Part shown: positions 3,176 to 24,274 of the stretch, piece after piece | Numbering within the stretch: the stretch's first letter is position 1 | Layout: each line of letters begins with the position of its first letter | Source: Escherichia phage nieznany | Length of the DNA: 64,000 nt | Sequence record: NC_052659.1 | Direction: 5' to 3' (one strand) | Made by a program: the position numbers and the translations under genes | Notes under the pieces: model-generated | What the model saw: only the letters and a program-made list of their open reading frames with translations | Database searches by the model: none | Told to the model about the DNA's origin: nothing

Positions 3176-3372
3176 GAATCCGTATCTATATAATTGATGA
3201 GGACATTGGTGTCCGTTATGATGACGAAAAACGATTCGCGCCGATGGGAGGCATATATCCCCCAAGTGTTCTAGCAGTTTGTCGTGATTGTTATATTTAT
3301 GAAGGTTGTCGTAACTTCCGTAAATTCGAACTCCTTGCAGATATTGACTTCAATGAGGAGGAGGAGGAGTAA
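3172..3372 (+). CDS. hypothetical protein
   Basis: ORF overlapping upstream stop by 4 nt (translational coupling); acidic C-terminus. Confidence 0.3.
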   Translation: MRIRIYIIDEDIGVRYDDEKRFAPMGGIYPPSVLAVCRDCYIYEGCRNFRKFELLADIDFNEEEEE

Positions 3373-3545: not shown

Positions 3546-3741
3546 CTACGATAACGACCCTAATATTATCCAGTTAACCCGACAAGAACTGATCACAATC
3601 ATTGAAGATGCTTTTATTGATGGCTGGAATACACAAGACAATGATTGGGGTGGACCCGAAGCTTTTCTGGAACATCATAAAGCTTATGGAGAATTTTGTG
3701 AAACCACTGTAGCTCTTGATAATCTGAAGGAGGGTTTGTAA
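3538..3741 (+). CDS. hypothetical protein
   Basis: ORF in tight early-gene array. Confidence 0.35.
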   Translation: MFNYDNDPNIIQLTRQELITIIEDAFIDGWNTQDNDWGGPEAFLEHHKAYGEFCETTVALDNLKEGL

Positions 3742-5616: not shown

Positions 5617-5866
5617 TGAGCAAAAAGTAAATAAACGATGCCTTACCATTAAAGATTTGGATGTAGGAGATACTTTCGTCTATGAAAATGCATTTGACGA
5701 AAATGGTTTAGACCTTAGTGAAATCATTGTTTATTTAAAAGTAGATGATGGGGAAAATGATTATTCTGCTGTAGAACTAAACCATCATGCACAATTAGTA
5801 TCAATCCAAAACACATCTAAGCTTTTGGAAGTAGAATTGACTGTAACTGGTATTACACTTAAATAA
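5597..5866 (+). CDS. small protein, paralog B of duplicated Ter-associated ORF
   Basis: GTG start after AGGAGG; paralog of 4297..4575; directly precedes TerD gene. Confidence 0.45.
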   Translation: MLNFEIDEQKVNKRCLTIKDLDVGDTFVYENAFDENGLDLSEIIVYLKVDDGENDYSAVELNHHAQLVSIQNTSKLLEVELTVTGITLK

Positions 5867-5881
5867 TAGAGGAGACAAAAG

Positions 5882-6484
5882 ATGACTGATAAAATTTCCC
5901 TGAAAAAAGGCTCTAGCGAAAAAATTTCCCTGAAGAAAGTTGCTCCGGCTCTGAAAGAACTGCGCCTGGAATTCTCTTGGAAATCTGATTCTAAACTGGA
6001 TCTGGATGTAAGTGCACTGGTTTGTCGTCACAATGCCGCTGGCAATCCTGAAATGCTGTCTGCACGTCATCTGGTTTGCTATGCTAACAAGTTTGATCCT
6101 GAACGTTCTACCTTCGCTGGTGACGATGTTCGTGATGGGACTGGCAGCATGGAGCAGATTGATATTACTCTGGCTAAAATCTCTCCTGATGCACAAGAGA
6201 TTGCCTTTGTTCTGACCATTGATGATGATACAGGTCTGAAACGTTTTGGTCATGCTTCTGAAGGTATGCTTAAAATCTTCGACTCCGAGCGTAATGTGGA
6301 AATTCTGGATTTTGACTTCCTGGCTCCTGAAGTAGCTGGCAACACAATCTGCCACGTGGCTTCCCTGGTTCGTGAAGATGGAGAATGGAAGCTGAAAGCA
6401 TATGGTGTAGGTAAAGCTGGTCTGGATATTTGCGATGTGGTGATGGCCTTCGGTGGTAAAAAAGAATGGTATGAATGTCCATAA
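5882..6484 (+). CDS. TerD-domain protein (tellurite resistance TerD/TerE/TerZ family)
   Basis: N-terminal repeated KISLKKG/KISLKKV, central LTIDDDTG acidic patch, C-terminal GEWK.KAYGVGKAGLD, about 200 aa: pattern of TerD family. Confidence 0.7.
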   Translation: MTDKISLKKGSSEKISLKKVAPALKELRLEFSWKSDSKLDLDVSALVCRHNAAGNPEMLSARHLVCYANKFDPERSTFAGDDVRDGTGSMEQIDITLAKISPDAQEIAFVLTIDDDTGLKRFGHASEGMLKIFDSERNVEILDFDFLAPEVAGNTICHVASLVREDGEWKLKAYGVGKAGLDICDVVMAFGGKKEWYECP

Positions 6485-18906: not shown

Positions 18907-19125
18907 ATGCGTAAATTAGTGAGCTTTAATGTTTCAATTCTTGTTGATGAACAAAATGAAGATGTTATTAAAGGTCTTGCAAATAAGATTGCAGGTGGAA
19001 TGACGGAAGCTGAAGTGTGGGAAGAATGTGCTCGACTTTATGAGGAAGGTGTTATTGAGGTCTTGGGGGATGAGATTAATATGGACGATGTTGTAAAAGT
19101 AACTGTGGAGCGTATCAATGACTAA
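18907..19125 (+). CDS. hypothetical protein
   Basis: RBS AAGGAG upstream. Confidence 0.4.
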   Translation: MRKLVSFNVSILVDEQNEDVIKGLANKIAGGMTEAEVWEECARLYEEGVIEVLGDEINMDDVVKVTVERIND

Positions 19126-19711
19126 ATCAAAACAAATCAATATTGCCAAAGAAATTCTTACCGTATTAAAGATCGCTGATCCTAATTCTGTCTTGGCTGG
19201 CGGTGCTGTTCGTGATTGGCGTATTCTTGATATTGCTGGACGTGATCTGGATTTCTATACATCCCTTCCTGCACATCGGACTGAAGAACAAATACAAGGA
19301 TTAATTGCATCTGCTTTAATGGGAACCAATATTCGTAAACTAGGAAACAAAGAGGCTTCTGACAATTATGAAGGTGTTACTGGTCTTAAACACGTTTTTG
19401 AGTTTGAACGTGATGGTCAGCTTTGCAACCTTATGATTATGGAACCAAGCGTAATGACAACCTTTCTAAATGAGTTCGATCTGTCCATCTGCCAGGCTGC
19501 ATTTGATGGGAAGGACTGTTATTATTCTAAAGATTTTGAAACAACCTTGGAAACAGGGATCTGCTTCTTGCACAAAGATGTTAGAGAAGATGCCAAACAT
19601 GTTATTAAAATTGCTACACGTTTCCCATATCTTCGTTTTGTGAAAGAGGTTAAGGTTCCACGTCCACCTCAAGTAGATACCAGATTGGAAGAAGATGATA
19701 TTCCTTGGTAA
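19118..19711 (+). CDS. nucleotidyltransferase-fold protein, possible tRNA nucleotidyltransferase (CCA-adding) head domain
   Basis: LAGGAVRDW...DIAGRDLD resembles GG.VRD...D.D of Pol-beta-like tRNA nucleotidyltransferases. Confidence 0.4.
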   Translation: MTKSKQINIAKEILTVLKIADPNSVLAGGAVRDWRILDIAGRDLDFYTSLPAHRTEEQIQGLIASALMGTNIRKLGNKEASDNYEGVTGLKHVFEFERDGQLCNLMIMEPSVMTTFLNEFDLSICQAAFDGKDCYYSKDFETTLETGICFLHKDVREDAKHVIKIATRFPYLRFVKEVKVPRPPQVDTRLEEDDIPW

Positions 19712-20165: not shown

Positions 20166-21098
20166 ATGTCCGTAATTAATACTGAAACTGATCGTAAAGG
20201 CAAAACCGTAACTTATGCAACTGGTATCGTAGACTACGTCAAACTGGATAAATTCGCTGAACCTAAAACTTTTCATTGGGAAGGAAAAACGATTGTTTCA
20301 ACTCACCGAGCCTCTCTTGTTCTGAAAGAGAAAGGTGCTAAACCAGATGAGAAAGGTGTTTGGATTTCTCTTGGTGACATTGAACTGAAAGAAGGTTATG
20401 AAAACCTGCAAGTCAAAGAAGGTGATAATTGGATCACTATTGAAAAAGGTGTAGAAGTAAGTATTGATATTGATCGCGTTGATAATAAAGGCGGTAAAAC
20501 TTACTACAATACTAAAAAATCTCGTATTACAGTATTGTCTACCGATGGTGTTCAGAAGTCTAACAAATCTTCTGGCAATAAAGGTTCCAACGATGCTGCT
20601 CCTAAGCAGTCCTATAAAAAACGTGATACTGTAGGTCTGGAAACTGGTCACGCAGTAAATGGTGCACTGGAACTGATTCGTAATGGTGTTAAAGGCGATG
20701 CTTTCGATATCGCTGGGGTTGTTCAATCTGCAACTGTCACGCTGAAATCTGAAATTGCTGAATCTCGTGGCGTTGATATTAATGATTATGATCTTGGGGC
20801 ATCTGTTGGTCACGCTATTCTCAATGCTTGTAAAGACCATACCATTAAGACTGTCTCTGTAGAAGATCTGATTGATTCTGCTCGTAAAGTTCTGGCTCTG
20901 TCTGATAAAGTTGCTGCTGCCATTCGTGGTTCCGCAGAACAGCCTAAGAAAGAAGAGAAGAAAGAAGTTAAGAAACCTGAACCACAACCAGAACCAACTC
21001 CAAGTAATCAAGAAGAACCTCCAATGGACTTCGACGATGATATTCCATTTGCCCCTATTGGACTGCAATATGGTCGAAACTTCCTGCATTGCTTCTAA
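20166..21098 (+). CDS. ssb: single-stranded DNA-binding protein
   Basis: OB-fold-like N-terminus, Gly/Ser/Pro-rich linker, acidic C-terminal tail MDFDDDIPF matching the bacterial SSB tail. Confidence 0.8.
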   Translation: MSVINTETDRKGKTVTYATGIVDYVKLDKFAEPKTFHWEGKTIVSTHRASLVLKEKGAKPDEKGVWISLGDIELKEGYENLQVKEGDNWITIEKGVEVSIDIDRVDNKGGKTYYNTKKSRITVLSTDGVQKSNKSSGNKGSNDAAPKQSYKKRDTVGLETGHAVNGALELIRNGVKGDAFDIAGVVQSATVTLKSEIAESRGVDINDYDLGASVGHAILNACKDHTIKTVSVEDLIDSARKVLALSDKVAAAIRGSAEQPKKEEKKEVKKPEPQPEPTPSNQEEPPMDFDDDIPFAPIGLQYGRNFLHCF

Positions 21099-21564
21099 GG
21101 TTTGTTTCAAGTGTGGGGTGTTAAAGCCCCTCACTGAATTTTACAAACATAAAGCTATGGCTGACGGTCACGTCAATAAATGCAAGGAATGTAATAAGAA
21201 AGATGTTAAACAGAATCGTAAAGATAAATCTGAATATTACAAAGAGTATGATAAAAACAGAGATCAGACCCCAGAGCGCAAAGCTTTGAAAGAGGCTTAC
21301 GCAAAAGGGAAAGGTAAAAATAAGGCCAATGAAGCTAAGAAACGTTACATCGAAAAGAATCCGAAAAAACGTTCTGCTCATATAGCTGTAGGTAACGCAC
21401 TCCGAGATGGAAAGTTAGTAAAACAACCTTGCCAAGTGTGTGGGTCTGTTGATGTTCATGCTCATCATTGTGATTATGATAAACCGTTAGATGTTCTATG
21501 GCTGTGTCCTCTACACCATGAGGCTTGGCATCAAGAACATGGTGAAGGATTGAACGCTGAATAA
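21070..21564 (+). CDS. HNH homing endonuclease
   Basis: CFKCG...CKEC zinc-finger-like N-terminus and HNH core VHAHHCDYDKPLDVLWLCPLHHEAWH; ATG 21070 overlaps SSB 3' end; alternative ATG 21037. Confidence 0.75.
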   Translation: MVETSCIASKVCFKCGVLKPLTEFYKHKAMADGHVNKCKECNKKDVKQNRKDKSEYYKEYDKNRDQTPERKALKEAYAKGKGKNKANEAKKRYIEKNPKKRSAHIAVGNALRDGKLVKQPCQVCGSVDVHAHHCDYDKPLDVLWLCPLHHEAWHQEHGEGLNAE

Positions 21565-21600
21565 AAGAAAAGGGAACCTTTACGGGTTCCCTTTTTTATT
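21563..21600. terminator. bidirectional rho-independent terminator
   Basis: GGGAACC..GGTTCCC hairpin flanked by A-run upstream and TTTTTT downstream; between convergent genes. Confidence 0.65.
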
Positions 21601-24274
21601 AGTCGTAATATTTCAAACCTGTAATGAACTTCGATCCCCAATCCGCACTTGCGGCGGTGAACGTCAACATCCAAGTTGTAGCTGTACCAGTGAAGACCTC
21701 TCGTTGCACAGTACCATCAGTGTGGTAAATGTCCACGCCAGTATGTCCATTCTTAGGAATAGTGAAGGTAACAGCACTGGTAGTGTCTCGTGCATAAGAA
21801 CAAACAAATGGTGTCCCCGCCCAAACTGGATTTGTCATATCACCCATCTCAAGCTGTGGAACCCAAGCAATAAGACCTGCCGTACCATCTCCTGCGAAAG
21901 TGTCTGATCCACTTGCATTCAAAGCTATAATCTCATAGGTTATAGATGCTTGTTTGGCAACTGTCACTTTGTGTAGAATTACACGATACCAACCATTCCC
22001 CATATCGATTATGTTTGCATCTGCACCTGTAAATGTTCCAGCTACAAGATCATAAGTCCCTTCGTTAATCTCATCTCCTGAAGTCAATTTGAGTTTCACT
22101 TTAGTGATCCCGTCTGGCTTCAAGAATACGGATGCCGCCCAGTGCTTACCTGCTGTAATATCAGAAGCTGTATTCACTGCTGATAAAATATGTTGTCCTG
22201 AAGTTGTAGAAGGTGTTAACTTGTAAGTGTTAGCCGTAGTTCCAACCGGAGAGTTGATTGTTGATGCTGTGACTGTCAAGTTCGTCTTCAACCACGGGGA
22301 AGCTGTTGTCAAGTTATTGTTGATAAAGATATGTGTACGGTTGGCTGCTACAACACGTCTACCTTGTGGAGTTGTACCAACATATTCTAAAGGTGCTACG
22401 GGAGCAGAACTCTCTGTAGGTACAAGGATATCTCCAGAAGCCCTGGCATAACGGTTACTCCTGTTGACCTTTACATCCGTTGGAATAGTTTCTTGCGTCA
22501 AATCATAGTCCATCACAATCACCACAGCATTCACTGCGAGATAAGAACTATCTTCGGCAGTTACCACACCTTGATAAGTTGCTCTACAACCGATACGACA
22601 ATCCCCATCAGCAACCGCTGTAATAACGCCTGTAACGGGGTCAACTGTTGCTACCGTAGGGTCATTAGAGAAATACTCAACAACCATACCAGGTAAGCTT
22701 GCTGCTCCTGTTGGCGTTATTTCTGCTACCATTGTTTGTGTTGTTCCTACATCCATCGCAGATAAGCTAGGGGTGTAAACGCTCAATGTTGAAGCATATC
22801 CTCCAGAGGTATCTGATAAAGTTGTTCCTTCAGCGTTTAAGGCTGTCATACCTGCATCAAAACCACCTTCTGCATGGAAAGTCATTAAACCAGTAGATGA
22901 TATTGTCATGTTTGCAGGGGCAGAAGAAGTGTATTTAATATTGAAAAGTTTACCTCCTTCTGGGCTAACAGAATGTGTCAACTGTTTAGTTCCACCTACA
23001 ATACAAATTCCTAAAGAATCTGTAGTTAAGTCAGTTGCCAGAATATCACCCGTAATCACGGAGCTTGCTATTGGTGTGAATTTATTATAGTTTAGACCGC
23101 TATTGAACAGATACGAGGCTTTCCCATCTTTCCAAATACCGGAATAATACATATCTCCATTATAAACGAAAAAGGTTCCTTGATAACCTAATTGGTTAGT
23201 AACATCCATATTCAGCGTATGAACGCTTGTGAGCTTGTTTATATCCCAGGAACCCACTCCTTCAGGTTTAACTGGTTTTCCCACTTGAAGTGGATCTCCG
23301 CTCGCAGAATCATACCCCAAACCTAAGTTTGCAGTGTAGTTCTTACCAATAGCCCACAAGGAATTATTGATCCCAACGAAAAAAGAGTGGCGGCTTGGTG
23401 GAAATTTCCATGTTGAGAAACCTGCTGCAAAGGTATTCAGTTTAGTATAGGTTGTTTCTGTATTAGATCTAACATATAAGTAGTTTACTGCACCCGTGCC
23501 ACCGGAGGTATCTCCTACAACTATTGTCTGGGAAACTGTATTGATGTAATCTTTGACATACACTGTTTCAGTAGCGGATATCTTGGCATTGACAAAAGCT
23601 GTTGTTGTGTTATTATTACCTGCTAAACCTTTACTAGCTCCACAAACACGCAAGGTTCCCACATTGTTGACATAAGAGCATTGGTTGTAACCTGCATCAA
23701 AAGCAACTGCTGCACTTGTTATCTGACGAGGAGTAGAAACTTCGTTAGTAGTACTTGCACCTAAACTGCCTACTGTGTTTTGACCAGATCCGTAAAGAAC
23801 ACCACTATTCATTAACCAGAGAGTGTTGTTATATCCTCCCTTAACCTCTTTAAGATTGGCTAAAGAGATAGTCCCTGTTATTACAGATGGAAAGCTGGTC
23901 CAAGTAGTTACACATGCGTCCGTACCACCTGCTGCTATAGATCCTACCAATCCTGCTGTCAATCCTGAATATTGCCATCCCCCACTGTTAGTTTTAATAA
24001 CAAAACAACGATCTGCGGTAAACACATCCGCTACTACAGTAGAAGCTAAGTGGAAATTATTGAATCGTGCACTACGAGTTCCATCTGCAATCTCACCAAA
24101 AAGGTTTGCGCCTTGAGTAAACAATCTACCATCATTAAGCAAAATTGCTAAACTGCTGTTAGAATTACCAGCATTATCTGGGTAATCTAAAGTGATTACT
24201 TTTTTAACAATACCTGCTGGCAGAGGAACGACACCAGTGCTGGTCATAATAGTAAATATTGGAATTGGAAACAT
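21599..24274 (-). CDS. tail fiber / receptor-binding protein (with Ig-like domain)
   Basis: 891 aa, Gly/Thr/Ser/Asn-rich beta-rich sequence, position at distal end of tail module. Confidence 0.45.
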   Translation of the reverse strand: MFPIPIFTIMTSTGVVPLPAGIVKKVITLDYPDNAGNSNSSLAILLNDGRLFTQGANLFGEIADGTRSARFNNFHLASTVVADVFTADRCFVIKTNSGGWQYSGLTAGLVGSIAAGGTDACVTTWTSFPSVITGTISLANLKEVKGGYNNTLWLMNSGVLYGSGQNTVGSLGASTTNEVSTPRQITSAAVAFDAGYNQCSYVNNVGTLRVCGASKGLAGNNNTTTAFVNAKISATETVYVKDYINTVSQTIVVGDTSGGTGAVNYLYVRSNTETTYTKLNTFAAGFSTWKFPPSRHSFFVGINNSLWAIGKNYTANLGLGYDSASGDPLQVGKPVKPEGVGSWDINKLTSVHTLNMDVTNQLGYQGTFFVYNGDMYYSGIWKDGKASYLFNSGLNYNKFTPIASSVITGDILATDLTTDSLGICIVGGTKQLTHSVSPEGGKLFNIKYTSSAPANMTISSTGLMTFHAEGGFDAGMTALNAEGTTLSDTSGGYASTLSVYTPSLSAMDVGTTQTMVAEITPTGAASLPGMVVEYFSNDPTVATVDPVTGVITAVADGDCRIGCRATYQGVVTAEDSSYLAVNAVVIVMDYDLTQETIPTDVKVNRSNRYARASGDILVPTESSAPVAPLEYVGTTPQGRRVVAANRTHIFINNNLTTASPWLKTNLTVTASTINSPVGTTANTYKLTPSTTSGQHILSAVNTASDITAGKHWAASVFLKPDGITKVKLKLTSGDEINEGTYDLVAGTFTGADANIIDMGNGWYRVILHKVTVAKQASITYEIIALNASGSDTFAGDGTAGLIAWVPQLEMGDMTNPVWAGTPFVCSYARDTTSAVTFTIPKNGHTGVDIYHTDGTVQREVFTGTATTWMLTFTAASADWGSKFITGLKYYD

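What the first reader, a model, noticed from the sequence alone, without database searches (positions are those of the whole stretch)
20166..21098. Phage SSB ends in the bacterial SSB tail motif DFDDDIPF
The last residues MDFDDDIPF match the conserved C-terminal tail of bacterial, E. coli-type SSB, which recruits host replication and repair proteins. This indicates a Gram-negative, likely enterobacterial host and suggests the phage SSB competes for or recruits host SSB-interacting proteins.
Basis: partly seen in the sequence, partly recalled or inferred. Interest (0 to 1): 0.4.

Follow-up and report, generated by a model that had tools for sequence, protein, structure and literature searches.

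The report
Endonuclease cassette caps phage SSB tail
The phage's SSB-like protein does carry the E. coli SSB tail motif, but not at its end: an HNH endonuclease gene, from a family found here only just after such tails, sits at the stop codon and adds 15 conserved residues, which should change how the tail meets host proteins.

Summary
The ORF (20166-21098, +, 310 aa) is real and holds MDFDDDIPF, identical to the last nine residues of E. coli SSB. The motif is at aa 287-295, not at the end; APIGLQYGRNFLHCF follows it. Most near-identical phAPEC8-type phages end exactly at ...DIPF*. In this window about 510 bp replace that stop codon. They supply the 15 extra codons and a Zn-ribbon/HNH endonuclease ORF (21070-21564) that starts inside them with a 29-nt overlap. 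rV5 versus AlexBoehm shows the same indel. DE16 and ECO340P2 carry a decayed copy.

All 77 assessable relatives of the endonuclease lie directly after tip-encoding genes, on at least nine unrelated SSB-type backbones. Insertion usually displaces the stop codon (+1 Asn or +15 aa): the endonuclease follows 69/104 DDDIPFN* ends but 1/109 FDDDIPF* ends. The best reading is a free-standing homing endonuclease specialised on SSB-tail coding DNA, analogous to T4 SegG at gene 32.

The extension is also a selected peptide. It occurs without the endonuclease in many temperate-phage SSBs, including one allele family in 409 of 5,426 complete E. coli genomes. Its function is unknown.

The protein body is OB-fold SSB-like and homologous to Bas52_0087, the DRT10 trigger, but it is not a Pfam SSB.

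The parts
20166..21098 (+). SSB-like protein gene, extended allele (310 aa plus stop)
   Evidence: ORF. phrog_4477 E=3e-97. 100% identical to the vB_EcoM_DE16 protein. Homologous to bas52_0087.
20166..20540 (+). N-terminal beta-rich domain (aa 1-125), predicted OB fold
20631..20924 (+). Four-helix domain (aa 156-253), the best-conserved part; includes invariant D154/G157/G161-H162-A163 just upstream
   Evidence: AF2 pLDDT above 90. Invariant columns in A2. D154 aligns with Bas52_0087 D252, a DRT10 escape site.
20925..21023 (+). Disordered Lys/Glu/Pro-rich linker (aa 254-286)
   Evidence: AF2 pLDDT below 55. Length and sequence vary among homologs.
21024..21050 (+). SSB-type acidic tip MDFDDDIPF (aa 287-295), internal in this allele
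   Evidence: Identical to the E. coli SSB C-terminus. It is the terminus in phAPEC8.
21051..21095 (+). 15-aa extension APIGLQYGRNFLHCF (aa 296-310); first part of the inserted cassette
   Evidence: Absent from tip-only relatives. The motif [AS]P[ILV]GLQY..h..h is conserved on unrelated backbones and is under peptide-level selection.
21051..21561 (+). Inserted cassette relative to tip-only genomes. It replaces 'C TRA TCTTATTGATTTATAAAGAGTTTTT' of phAPEC8-type phages.
   Evidence: Alignments. The only fixed upstream difference is the third base of the Phe codon, TTT versus TTC.
21070..21564 (+). Zn-ribbon + HNH endonuclease ORF (164 aa), -1 frame relative to the SSB-like gene, 29-nt overlap; the ATG lies in 'CAA TAT GGT' (Q-Y-G of the extension)
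21091..21213 (+). N-terminal Zn-ribbon module of the endonuclease (aa 8-48), shared with the otherwise different rV5 endonuclease; probable DNA-recognition module
   Evidence: 57% identity over 44 aa to rV5 ORF213, with nothing else alignable.
21568..21595 (.). Bidirectional intrinsic terminator shared with tip-only genomes (right flank of the cassette)
   Evidence: Annotated as a terminator in phAPEC8 and Schickermooser.

Best explanation
The gene encodes the phage's SSB-like protein: an OB-type domain, a helical domain and a disordered linker ending in an E. coli-type SSB tip. In this genome its 3' end has been invaded by a promoter-less, free-standing homing-endonuclease cassette. The cassette begins directly after the Phe codon of the tip. 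It removes the original stop codon and supplies 15 new codons (APIGLQYGRNFLHCF) plus a Zn-ribbon/HNH endonuclease whose ATG lies inside those codons (29-nt overlap, -1 frame). The endonuclease is therefore co-transcribed with the SSB-like gene and probably translationally coupled to it. It belongs to a large family that, in every relative I could assess, lies immediately 3' of genes encoding an SSB-type tip, whatever the fold of the rest of the protein. Inferred mechanism: the enzyme recognises and cuts or nicks the conserved tip-coding DNA (...GAY GAY ATH CCN TTY-stop) of cassette-free relatives during co-infection. Recombinational repair from the cassette-bearing genome then copies the cassette in, and the displaced stop codon makes the carrier immune. 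Copies later decay, as in DE16. The consequence for the protein is that the tip is no longer the C-terminus, so carboxylate-dependent docking to host SSB partners (ExoI, RecO, chi, PriA and others) should be weakened or re-specified. The 15-aa extension is not junk. It is an older, selected C-terminal motif of many phage SSBs that this cassette subtype carries along. Its own function is unknown. Shown here: the anatomy, the polymorphism, the association and the selection. Inferred: cleavage, homing, coupling and the effect on partner binding.
For: (1) Indel: phAPEC8-type genomes end ..CCA TTC TRA. The window, Mt1B1_P17 and ZCKP1 have ..CCA TTT + extension + HNH, and homology resumes at the terminator.
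(2) The same unit, with the same 29-nt overlap, distinguishes rV5 (423 aa + 'endonuclease VII') from AlexBoehm/Bas56 (408 aa..DDIPF*) in another subfamily.
(3) Decay: DE16 and ECO340P2 keep the extension, but the HNH ORF is internally deleted (GGTTTGTTTCAAGTGTG|TGAGGTTGAATGCTGAATAA).
(4) Association: 77 of 77 assessable relatives, among the best 80 of at least 492 in IMG/VR, directly follow a tip-encoding ORF. The backbones include Pfam SSB, PHROGs 44, 743, 9002, 18154 and 112 (gp2.5-like), 2544, 862 and 24909, and here phrog_4477.
(5) Stop-codon displacement is a cassette signature. Junctions are +1 aa in 42, +0 in 20, +15 in 8 and other in 7. The HNH follows 69/104 DDDIPFN* ends versus 1/109 FDDDIPF* ends, p=6e-28. 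The last two codons are biased to CCT-TTT (Phe TTT 81% vs 47%, p=3e-6).
(6) Nuclease identity: invariant HH/CxxC/CxxH residues, a high-confidence model and HNH-type structural neighbours.
(7) No promoter lies between the genes, no RNA structure at the start, and no intron.
(8) Precedents in T4 (PMC2988022): segG lies at 32/59 and targets the SSB gene 32; cassettes are promoter-less; overlaps with the upstream ORF are 11-24 bp; a degeneration cycle is described.
(9) Extension selected as a peptide: synonymous sites are saturated (pS 0.8) while the motif is kept. Window versus L021 has 6 synonymous and 0 non-synonymous changes in the SSB frame, two of which are non-synonymous in the HNH frame.
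Confidence: 0.7

Rival explanations
1. The extension is the main point. AP[IV]GLQY..h..h would be a functional short linear motif of phage SSBs: a docking site for a host or phage partner, a composite motif with the tip, a regulated cap or a degron. The window would simply carry that variant, and the endonuclease would be a secondary passenger that adapted to extension-bearing genes.
For: The motif follows the tip on unrelated backbones. It occurs in canonical SSBs of P22-like prophages next to Abc2 with no endonuclease of this family detected downstream (Pfam/PGAP annotations only). One allele family is in 409 of 5,426 complete E. coli genomes. None of the 35 loci of the 14-aa class has the endonuclease. 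There is peptide-level purifying selection, and the tip stays conserved when capped (pN/pS 0.11).
Against: In the window's own genus, and in Vequintavirus, the extension appears and disappears only together with the endonuclease or its remnant. Near-identical phages do without it. No partner is known and the literature search gave no hit. AF2 gives it low confidence and no docking onto the body.
Confidence: 0.4
2. The endonuclease is not selfish. It would be a conserved functional partner of SSB, for example a replication or recombination nuclease recruited by the tip, and the synteny would reflect co-regulation.
For: Gene order is invariant across very diverse phages. Expression is coupled in the compact type.
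Against: Presence and absence vary among genomes more than 97% identical, in two subfamilies. Internally deleted copies occur in viable phages. The nuclease domain is swapped behind the same Zn-ribbon in rV5. Only 1 of 109 ordinary FDDDIPF* SSB genes has it.
Confidence: 0.12
3. The protein is not a true ssDNA-binding protein. It would be a tail-bearing adaptor or decoy that uses the SSB tip only to engage host SSB partners.
Against: The top structural neighbours are dominated by ssDNA-binding OB proteins. The gene lies in the replication module downstream of the DNA polymerase. Bas52_0087 was independently predicted to be SSB-like by Phold and AF2.
Confidence: 0.15
4. The extension is removed or avoided at the RNA or translation level, so that a free tip is still made. 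Candidate routes are a group I intron, an intein, or programmed frameshifting or termination.
For: The tip remains strictly conserved in capped alleles.
Against: No Rfam intron match at E<=1. About 510 bp, almost fully occupied by a 164-aa ORF, leaves no room for a ribozyme core. No 3' exon with a stop codon follows. There is no slippery site and no significant RNA structure. The extension is too short for an intein.
Confidence: 0.03
5. The extension is neutral read-through into inserted DNA.
For: It arises exactly at an insertion junction.
Against: The same peptide is conserved at saturated synonymous divergence, on many backbones, and in loci without the insertion.
Confidence: 0.03

Closest known systems
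T4 SegG, the free-standing homing endonuclease at gene 32/59 (PMC2988022)
   Same: A free-standing, promoter-less endonuclease gene lies next to the phage's SSB gene, and its target is that SSB gene in endonuclease-less relatives. It is variably present among close relatives.
   Different: SegG is GIY-YIG and lies upstream of gene 32, and T4 gp32 has no E. coli-type tip. Here the enzyme is Zn-ribbon + HNH and sits exactly at the 3' end. It alters the protein's C-terminus, and relatives occur behind tips of many non-homologous genes. Cleavage is untested here.
T4 mobE, segC, segF, mobA and mobC cassettes (ORF overlap and translational coupling; hairpin plus late-promoter control)
   Same: The start codon overlaps the upstream ORF: 11-24 bp in T4, 29 nt here. 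The +0/+1 relatives show a stem plus a TATAAT-like box plus an RBS before the ATG.
   Different: In T4 the overlap does not extend or modify the upstream protein. Here the cassette supplies a new C-terminus for it.
E. coli SSB C-terminal tip (SSB-Ct, ..MDFDDDIPF-COOH)
   Same: An identical 12-residue sequence, EPPMDFDDDIPF, preceded by a disordered linker.
   Different: The tip is not terminal in this allele. The body is not a PF00436 SSB. The DNA uses different synonymous codons, so this is not a recent copy of host ssb.
Bas52_0087 of phage RudolfGeigy, the SSB-like trigger of the DRT10 (UG17) defence (bioRxiv 10.64898/2026.04.29.721553)
   Same: Homologous N-terminal OB domain (34% identity), helical domain and tail (33%), and FDDDIPF tip. 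The escape residue D252 corresponds to invariant D154 here. The paper reports that DRT10 also acts on Stephanstirmvirinae.
   Different: Bas52_0087 has a second OB domain (408 aa), a free tip and no endonuclease downstream.
HK620 SSB tail and Sak4 (PMC5928155)
   Same: The last residues of a phage SSB serve as the docking site for a recombination partner, which shows that phage SSB tails can be re-specified.
   Different: The HK620 tail is NDYPPF at the true C-terminus, with no extension and no endonuclease.

Membership tests
Bacterial/E. coli-type SSB (Pfam PF00436) | Sequence match of the OB domain to PF00436 or NCBIfam SSB models | tested here: not met
   No PF00436 hit at E<=1. The NCBIfam PRK09010 match covers only aa 254-295, 22.7 bits against a cut-off of 260.
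Bacterial/E. coli-type SSB (Pfam PF00436) | OB fold | tested here: inconclusive
Bacterial/E. coli-type SSB (Pfam PF00436) | Disordered linker ending in the acidic tip D-D-D-I-P-F | tested here: met
Bacterial/E. coli-type SSB (Pfam PF00436) | The tip is the extreme C-terminus (free Phe carboxylate) | tested here: not met
   Fifteen residues follow it in this window. The feature is met in phAPEC8-type alleles.
Bacterial/E. coli-type SSB (Pfam PF00436) | High-affinity ssDNA binding and oligomerisation | not testable with these tools
   Needs biochemistry.
phrog_4477 / Bas52_0087-like SSB-like proteins of large enterobacterial myoviruses | Full-length sequence homology, including the helical domain with invariant D..G...GHA | tested here: met
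   phrog_4477 E=3e-97. 237 homologs. Invariant columns. BLASTP to bas52_0087 gives E=1e-15 and 8e-13.
Free-standing homing endonuclease gene | Encodes a nuclease of a homing-endonuclease class (HNH) | tested here: met
Free-standing homing endonuclease gene | Presence/absence polymorphism at the same site among otherwise near-identical genomes | tested here: met
   Phapecoctavirus and Vequintavirus.
Free-standing homing endonuclease gene | Inserted next to a highly conserved target sequence | tested here: met
   77/77 lie directly 3' of tip-coding ends, on at least nine backbones.
Free-standing homing endonuclease gene | Degenerate or deleted copies (life cycle) | tested here: met
   Internal deletion in DE16 and ECO340P2. 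Remnant-like ends in L005 and L021.
Free-standing homing endonuclease gene | Co-conversion of flanking markers | tested here: inconclusive
   Only the Phe codon's third base is fixed in this genus. Family-wide there is a CCT-TTT bias in the last two codons.
Free-standing homing endonuclease gene | Site-specific cleavage of the cassette-free allele and super-Mendelian inheritance | not testable with these tools
   Needs enzyme assays and phage crosses.
Intron-encoded endonuclease (group I intron) | Ribozyme core flanking the ORF; a precise exon junction restoring the gene | tested here: not met
   No Rfam intron at E<=1. No downstream exon or stop codon.

The most novel reading that the evidence does not exclude
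A large family of Zn-ribbon/HNH homing endonucleases homes to the roughly 20-25 nt that encode a short linear motif, the SSB acidic tip, rather than to a gene family. It could therefore move between non-homologous SSB-type genes of unrelated phages, and on arrival it rewrites the C-terminus of an essential hub protein (+1 Asn or +15 aa). In parallel, the AP[IV]GLQY..h..h extension would be an undescribed functional motif of phage and prophage SSBs. It may convert a host-type tip into a capped, re-specified or regulated tail, with possible consequences for host partner recruitment and for defences that sense SSB-like proteins, such as DRT10.
Probability: 0.45. Interest if true: 0.75.

Novelty: new variant of a known kind. 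Interest (0 to 1): 0.6.

Why it matters
1. It corrects a tempting annotation. In this genome the 'bacterial SSB tail' is internal, so predictions about recruiting host partners cannot simply be carried over.
2. If the homing reading holds, the target is defined by a peptide-motif-coding sequence shared by non-homologous genes. That would explain how one endonuclease family spreads across very different phages. It also gives a natural set of free-tip, +1 and +15 alleles for asking how much a free SSB C-terminus matters in vivo.
3. The conserved extension is common. One allele family is in 409 of 5,426 complete E. coli genomes, all annotated plainly as 'ssb'. It appears undescribed and is directly testable by peptide binding, pull-down and intact-mass experiments.
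4. The protein family includes the only known trigger of the DRT10 defence, which that paper links to ExoI and the tip. Capped versus free alleles are therefore ready-made probes for that model.

Tried and rejected
- Extended co-conversion tract: an apparent SNP cluster against phAPEC8 alone disappeared when five tip-only and five cassette genomes were compared. Only the Phe codon's third base is fixed.
- Group I intron or other RNA family in 20800-21750: nothing credible.
- Regulatory RNA hairpin at the endonuclease start: not significant, z=-0.09.
- Promoter between the two genes: none.
- Sequence identification of the endonuclease by Pfam, NCBIfam or PDB: no hits.
- 'The extension is always linked to the endonuclease': rejected.
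- 'The extension is just the endonuclease N-terminus or RBS read in another frame': rejected. The substitutions are synonymous in the SSB frame but non-synonymous in the HNH frame, and the motif persists where there is no ATG and no HNH.
- SSB-HNH fusion by frameshift: L040 has a stop 4 codons before the endonuclease ATG, and no slippery site is conserved.
- Beta-clamp-binding-motif and C-terminal-degron readings of the extension: considered from memory of the consensus motifs (QL[SD]LF; ssrA ..YALAA). The resemblance is loose and cannot be tested with these tools, so neither is claimed.

Full report
1. THE OBSERVATION

The ORF is at 20166..21098 (+) and encodes 310 aa. It contains MDFDDDIPF at aa 287-295 (nt 21024-21050). 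BLASTP against E. coli K-12 SSB, taken from NC_000913, aligns ..PSN(QE)EPPMDFDDDIPF with the host protein's last residues, and the terminal 12 are identical. The motif is therefore real and not a chance match.

It is not the C-terminus, however. APIGLQYGRNFLHCF follows it, with the stop at 21096-21098.

2. IDENTITY OF THE GENOME AND THE PROTEIN

The region is 97-99.7% identical to phAPEC8-like E. coli myoviruses (Phapecoctavirus, Stephanstirmvirinae). The gene lies downstream of the DNA polymerase, a nucleotidyltransferase and a small ORF.

Pfam and NCBIfam recognise only the tail. The body belongs to phrog_4477, 'unknown function'.

An AlphaFold2 model built on 51 homologs has mean pLDDT 78. 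It shows:
- a beta-rich N-domain (aa 1-125);
- a disordered linker;
- a confident four-helix domain (aa 156-253);
- a disordered tail that includes the extension.

The protein is homologous in both domains to bas52_0087 of phage RudolfGeigy. A 2026 preprint identified bas52_0087 as an SSB-like protein with an FDDDIPF tip that is required to trigger the DRT10 reverse-transcriptase defence, and linked it to ExoI/SbcB. Its escape site D252 aligns with the invariant D154 here.

'Phage SSB-like protein with a host-type tip' is thus reasonable and already described for this family. It is not a member of the classical SSB sequence family.

3. WHY THE TIP IS INTERNAL

phAPEC8 and most relatives encode a 295-aa protein ending ..MDFDDDIPF*. 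Aligning the DNA shows that the window, Mt1B1_P17 and ZCKP1 carry about 510 bp in place of 29 bp (the stop codon plus spacer). The insertion starts right after the Phe codon and ends at the shared terminator.

The insert holds the 15 extra codons and an ORF with a CxxC..CxxC Zn-ribbon and an HNH-type motif.
- The ORF starts at ATG 21070, embedded in CAA-TAT-GGT (Q-Y-G of the extension), giving a 29-nt overlap in the -1 frame.
- phrog_2340 aligns from residue 9.
- Family members have their first CxxC 3-12 residues from the start, and the NCBI annotation of Citrobacter phage Tr1 uses the same start.
- The RefSeq annotations of Mt1B1_P17 and ZCKP1 start at an internal Met and lose half the Zn-ribbon.

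No promoter lies between the genes, there is no significant RNA structure at the start, and there is no intron.

4. MOBILITY

- In Vequintavirus, rV5 has a 423-aa homolog ending ..DDIPF+APVGLQYGKSRIHAL. It is overlapped by 29 nt by 'endonuclease VII'. AlexBoehm (Bas56) has a 408-aa protein ending ..DDIPF* and no endonuclease.
- The rV5 enzyme shares only the N-terminal 44-aa Zn-ribbon with the window's enzyme (57% identity). The family is therefore modular, with a common presumptive DNA-recognition module.
- DE16 and ECO340P2 carry the 310-aa allele; the DE16 protein is 100% identical to the window's and ECO340P2's 99.4%. Their endonuclease ORF is internally deleted, leaving its first and last ~20 nt.
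- phi92-like phages (L021/L041) and L005 have the extension followed by remnant-like sequence and the terminator.
- All three states occur among near-identical genomes: tip only, tip + extension + endonuclease, and tip + extension + remnant. This is the expected life cycle of a homing endonuclease gene (PMC2988022).
- I found no long co-conversion tract. Only the third base of the Phe codon is fixed between the groups.

5. THE ENDONUCLEASE FAMILY IS TIED TO SSB TAILS

A profile of four members found at least 492 relatives in IMG/VR. For the best 80, every one of the 77 with upstream sequence lies directly behind an ORF ending in an SSB-type tip.

The junctions fall into these classes:
- no added residue: 20;
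- one added residue, mostly Asn (CCYTTT|AAT TAG/TGA): 42;
- fifteen added residues with a constant 52-nt Phe-to-CxxC spacing: 8;
- odd extensions: 7.

The +0 and +1 types have an inverted repeat, a TATAAT-like box and an RBS before the ATG, as in T4 endonuclease genes.

The upstream proteins are heterogeneous:
- Pfam SSB;
- PHROGs 44, 743, 9002 and 18154 ('SSB');
- phrog_112 (gp2.5-like);
- unknown PHROGs 2544, 862 and 24909;
- phrog_4477 in this window.

All they visibly share is the tip-coding DNA.

Independent scans show that the endonuclease follows 69/104 ..DDDIPFN* ends but only 1/109 ..FDDDIPF* ends (Fisher p=6e-28). Endonuclease-adjacent tips are biased to CCT-TTT in their last two codons: Phe TTT 81% versus 47% (p=3e-6) and Pro CCT 69% versus 19%, at similar background composition. 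Insertion at the stop codon, with displacement of that codon, is therefore a signature of the cassette.

The closest known analogue is T4 SegG, a free-standing endonuclease next to the SSB gene 32 and targeting it. My literature searches found no systematic description of a tail-associated HNH family. The only mention was an anecdotal 'ssb followed by HNH genes' in N4-like phages.

6. THE EXTENSION IS A SELECTED PEPTIDE IN ITS OWN RIGHT

Among 120 body-homologs, 27 by hand count carry [AS]P[ILV]GL[QP]Y followed by a short hydrophobic-patterned end (a motif regex matched 37 of all 260 retrieved proteins). The same module follows the tip in unrelated proteins.

It also follows the tip in canonical E. 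coli-type SSBs:
- of Vibrio, Pseudoalteromonas, Oceanisphaera, Glaciecola and Providencia elements;
- of Proteus and Providencia (APIGLPYPRHAIYVI);
- of E. coli, Salmonella and Klebsiella prophages (APVTLPFPRHAIHAI).

In the two contexts examined (an E. coli and a Proteus prophage) it lies in a lambdoid/P22-like early region — next to Abc2 anti-RecBCD in E. coli — with no endonuclease of this family downstream. That single allele family occurs in 409 of 5,426 complete E. coli genomes, annotated simply as ssb.

Evidence for selection on the peptide:
- Among 30 distinct DNA versions of the 14-aa class, synonymous sites are saturated (pS 0.8).
- Positions not fixed by my search pattern have pN/pS 0.47, against 0.76 in the adjacent linker. 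The tip has 0.11.
- Window versus L021 differ by six changes that are synonymous in the SSB frame and none that are non-synonymous. Two of these changes are non-synonymous in the endonuclease frame.

The 14-aa class is never next to the endonuclease (0/35). The 15-17-aa class sometimes is (3/8).

The most economical history is as follows. The extension is an old phage-SSB tail variant. One endonuclease lineage settled just behind it and placed its start codon in it. That lineage now carries the extension along when it invades tip-only genes, as in this window.

7. CONSEQUENCES AND LIMITS

Structures of SSB-Ct complexes bury Pro-Phe and anchor the terminal carboxyl group (RecO Arg132). An internal tip should therefore bind canonical partners poorly. 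That is an inference.

The tip stays conserved in capped proteins. This suggests one of three things: a composite motif, a role that does not need the carboxylate, or removal of the extension.

Viable close relatives exist with free, capped and remnant-capped alleles. If the cap is not removed, this natural series argues that a free tip is not essential for growth in this genus.

What the extension binds, whether the endonuclease cuts tip-coding DNA, and whether the protein binds ssDNA all remain untested.

8. VERDICT

The locus is an SSB-like gene whose tail end carries a homing-type endonuclease cassette. The cassette belongs to a family specialised on SSB tails and brings a conserved, functionally unknown tail extension. 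Each element is of a known kind. The target logic and the tail remodelling appear to be new variants.

Noticed in passing
window 19118-19711 (+): The nucleotidyltransferase (poly(A) polymerase/CCA-adding-like, phrog_10174) two genes upstream ends in an SSB-tip-like ..EEDDIPW*. The [DE]DIPW end is conserved in about 60%-identical homologs (phiWec188 ..FQDDIPW, Pseudomonas phage PsgM04F ..DEDIPW) but absent in phi92. It is the only other ORF in the window with such an end. It may dock into the same pockets as SSB tips.
   Followed up: partly
L002 3158-3565 (Mt1B1_P17) and L003 3158-3565 (ZCKP1); corresponds to window 21157-21564: The RefSeq annotations start the endonuclease at an internal Met (MADGH..) and cut off the first CxxC of the Zn-ribbon. 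The likely true start corresponds to window 21070.
   Followed up: yes
L051 (rV5) about 3350-3370 versus L052 (AlexBoehm) about 3710-3730: The 3' end of the rV5 endonuclease ORF (..TATGACATATACTTTTAG) resembles the 3' end of the SSB-like gene (..GATGACATACCGTTTTAA). The cassette is thus flanked by similar sequences, which may be a target-site duplication or a recombination footprint.
   Followed up: no
L038 (IMGVR_UViG_3300013692_000001), just after the SSB stop: This endonuclease homolog has no ATG, GTG or TTG in frame upstream of its first CxxC. The first in-frame Met is the conserved 'MADGH'. It may use a non-canonical start, or the copy may be decaying.
   Followed up: no
L053-L132, between the SSB stop and the endonuclease ATG: In +0/+1 cassettes the spacer holds an inverted repeat. 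One arm abuts the SSB stop and the other the RBS (for example TGACCCCATTCTAG...ATAGGATGGGG), with an inner hairpin and a TATAAT-like box. This resembles the T4 'RBS-sequestering hairpin plus internal late promoter' control (PMC2988022).
   Followed up: partly
L387 (E. coli E2348/69 prophage) 988-2976: The module is Rad52-like annealase, then an unrelated HNH endonuclease, then ssb with the tip + APVTLPFPRHAIHAI extension, then anti-RecBCD (Abc2). The HNH upstream of ssb is not related to the window's family.
   Followed up: partly
L142 (Proteus prophage) 5695-6231: The SSB is called as two ORFs: 82 aa with PF00436, and 76 aa with the tail and extension. Either the gene is frameshifted or the sequence has an error.
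   Followed up: no
window 20298-21134 (-) and 20872-21564 (+): There is a long antisense ORF (278 aa) and a 230-aa TTG-started ORF in the endonuclease frame that runs back through the Lys/Glu-rich linker. Both are most likely by-products of the biased composition. Only the part from ATG 21070 matches the endonuclease family.
   Followed up: partly
phage database hits: Several records labelled 'Campylobacter phage' (A145, B15, C12, D1 and others) and 'Acinetobacter phage vB_AbaM_ABPW7' are near-identical to E. coli phAPEC8-, phi92- or rV5-like phages. Host labels in these records should be treated with caution.
   Followed up: no
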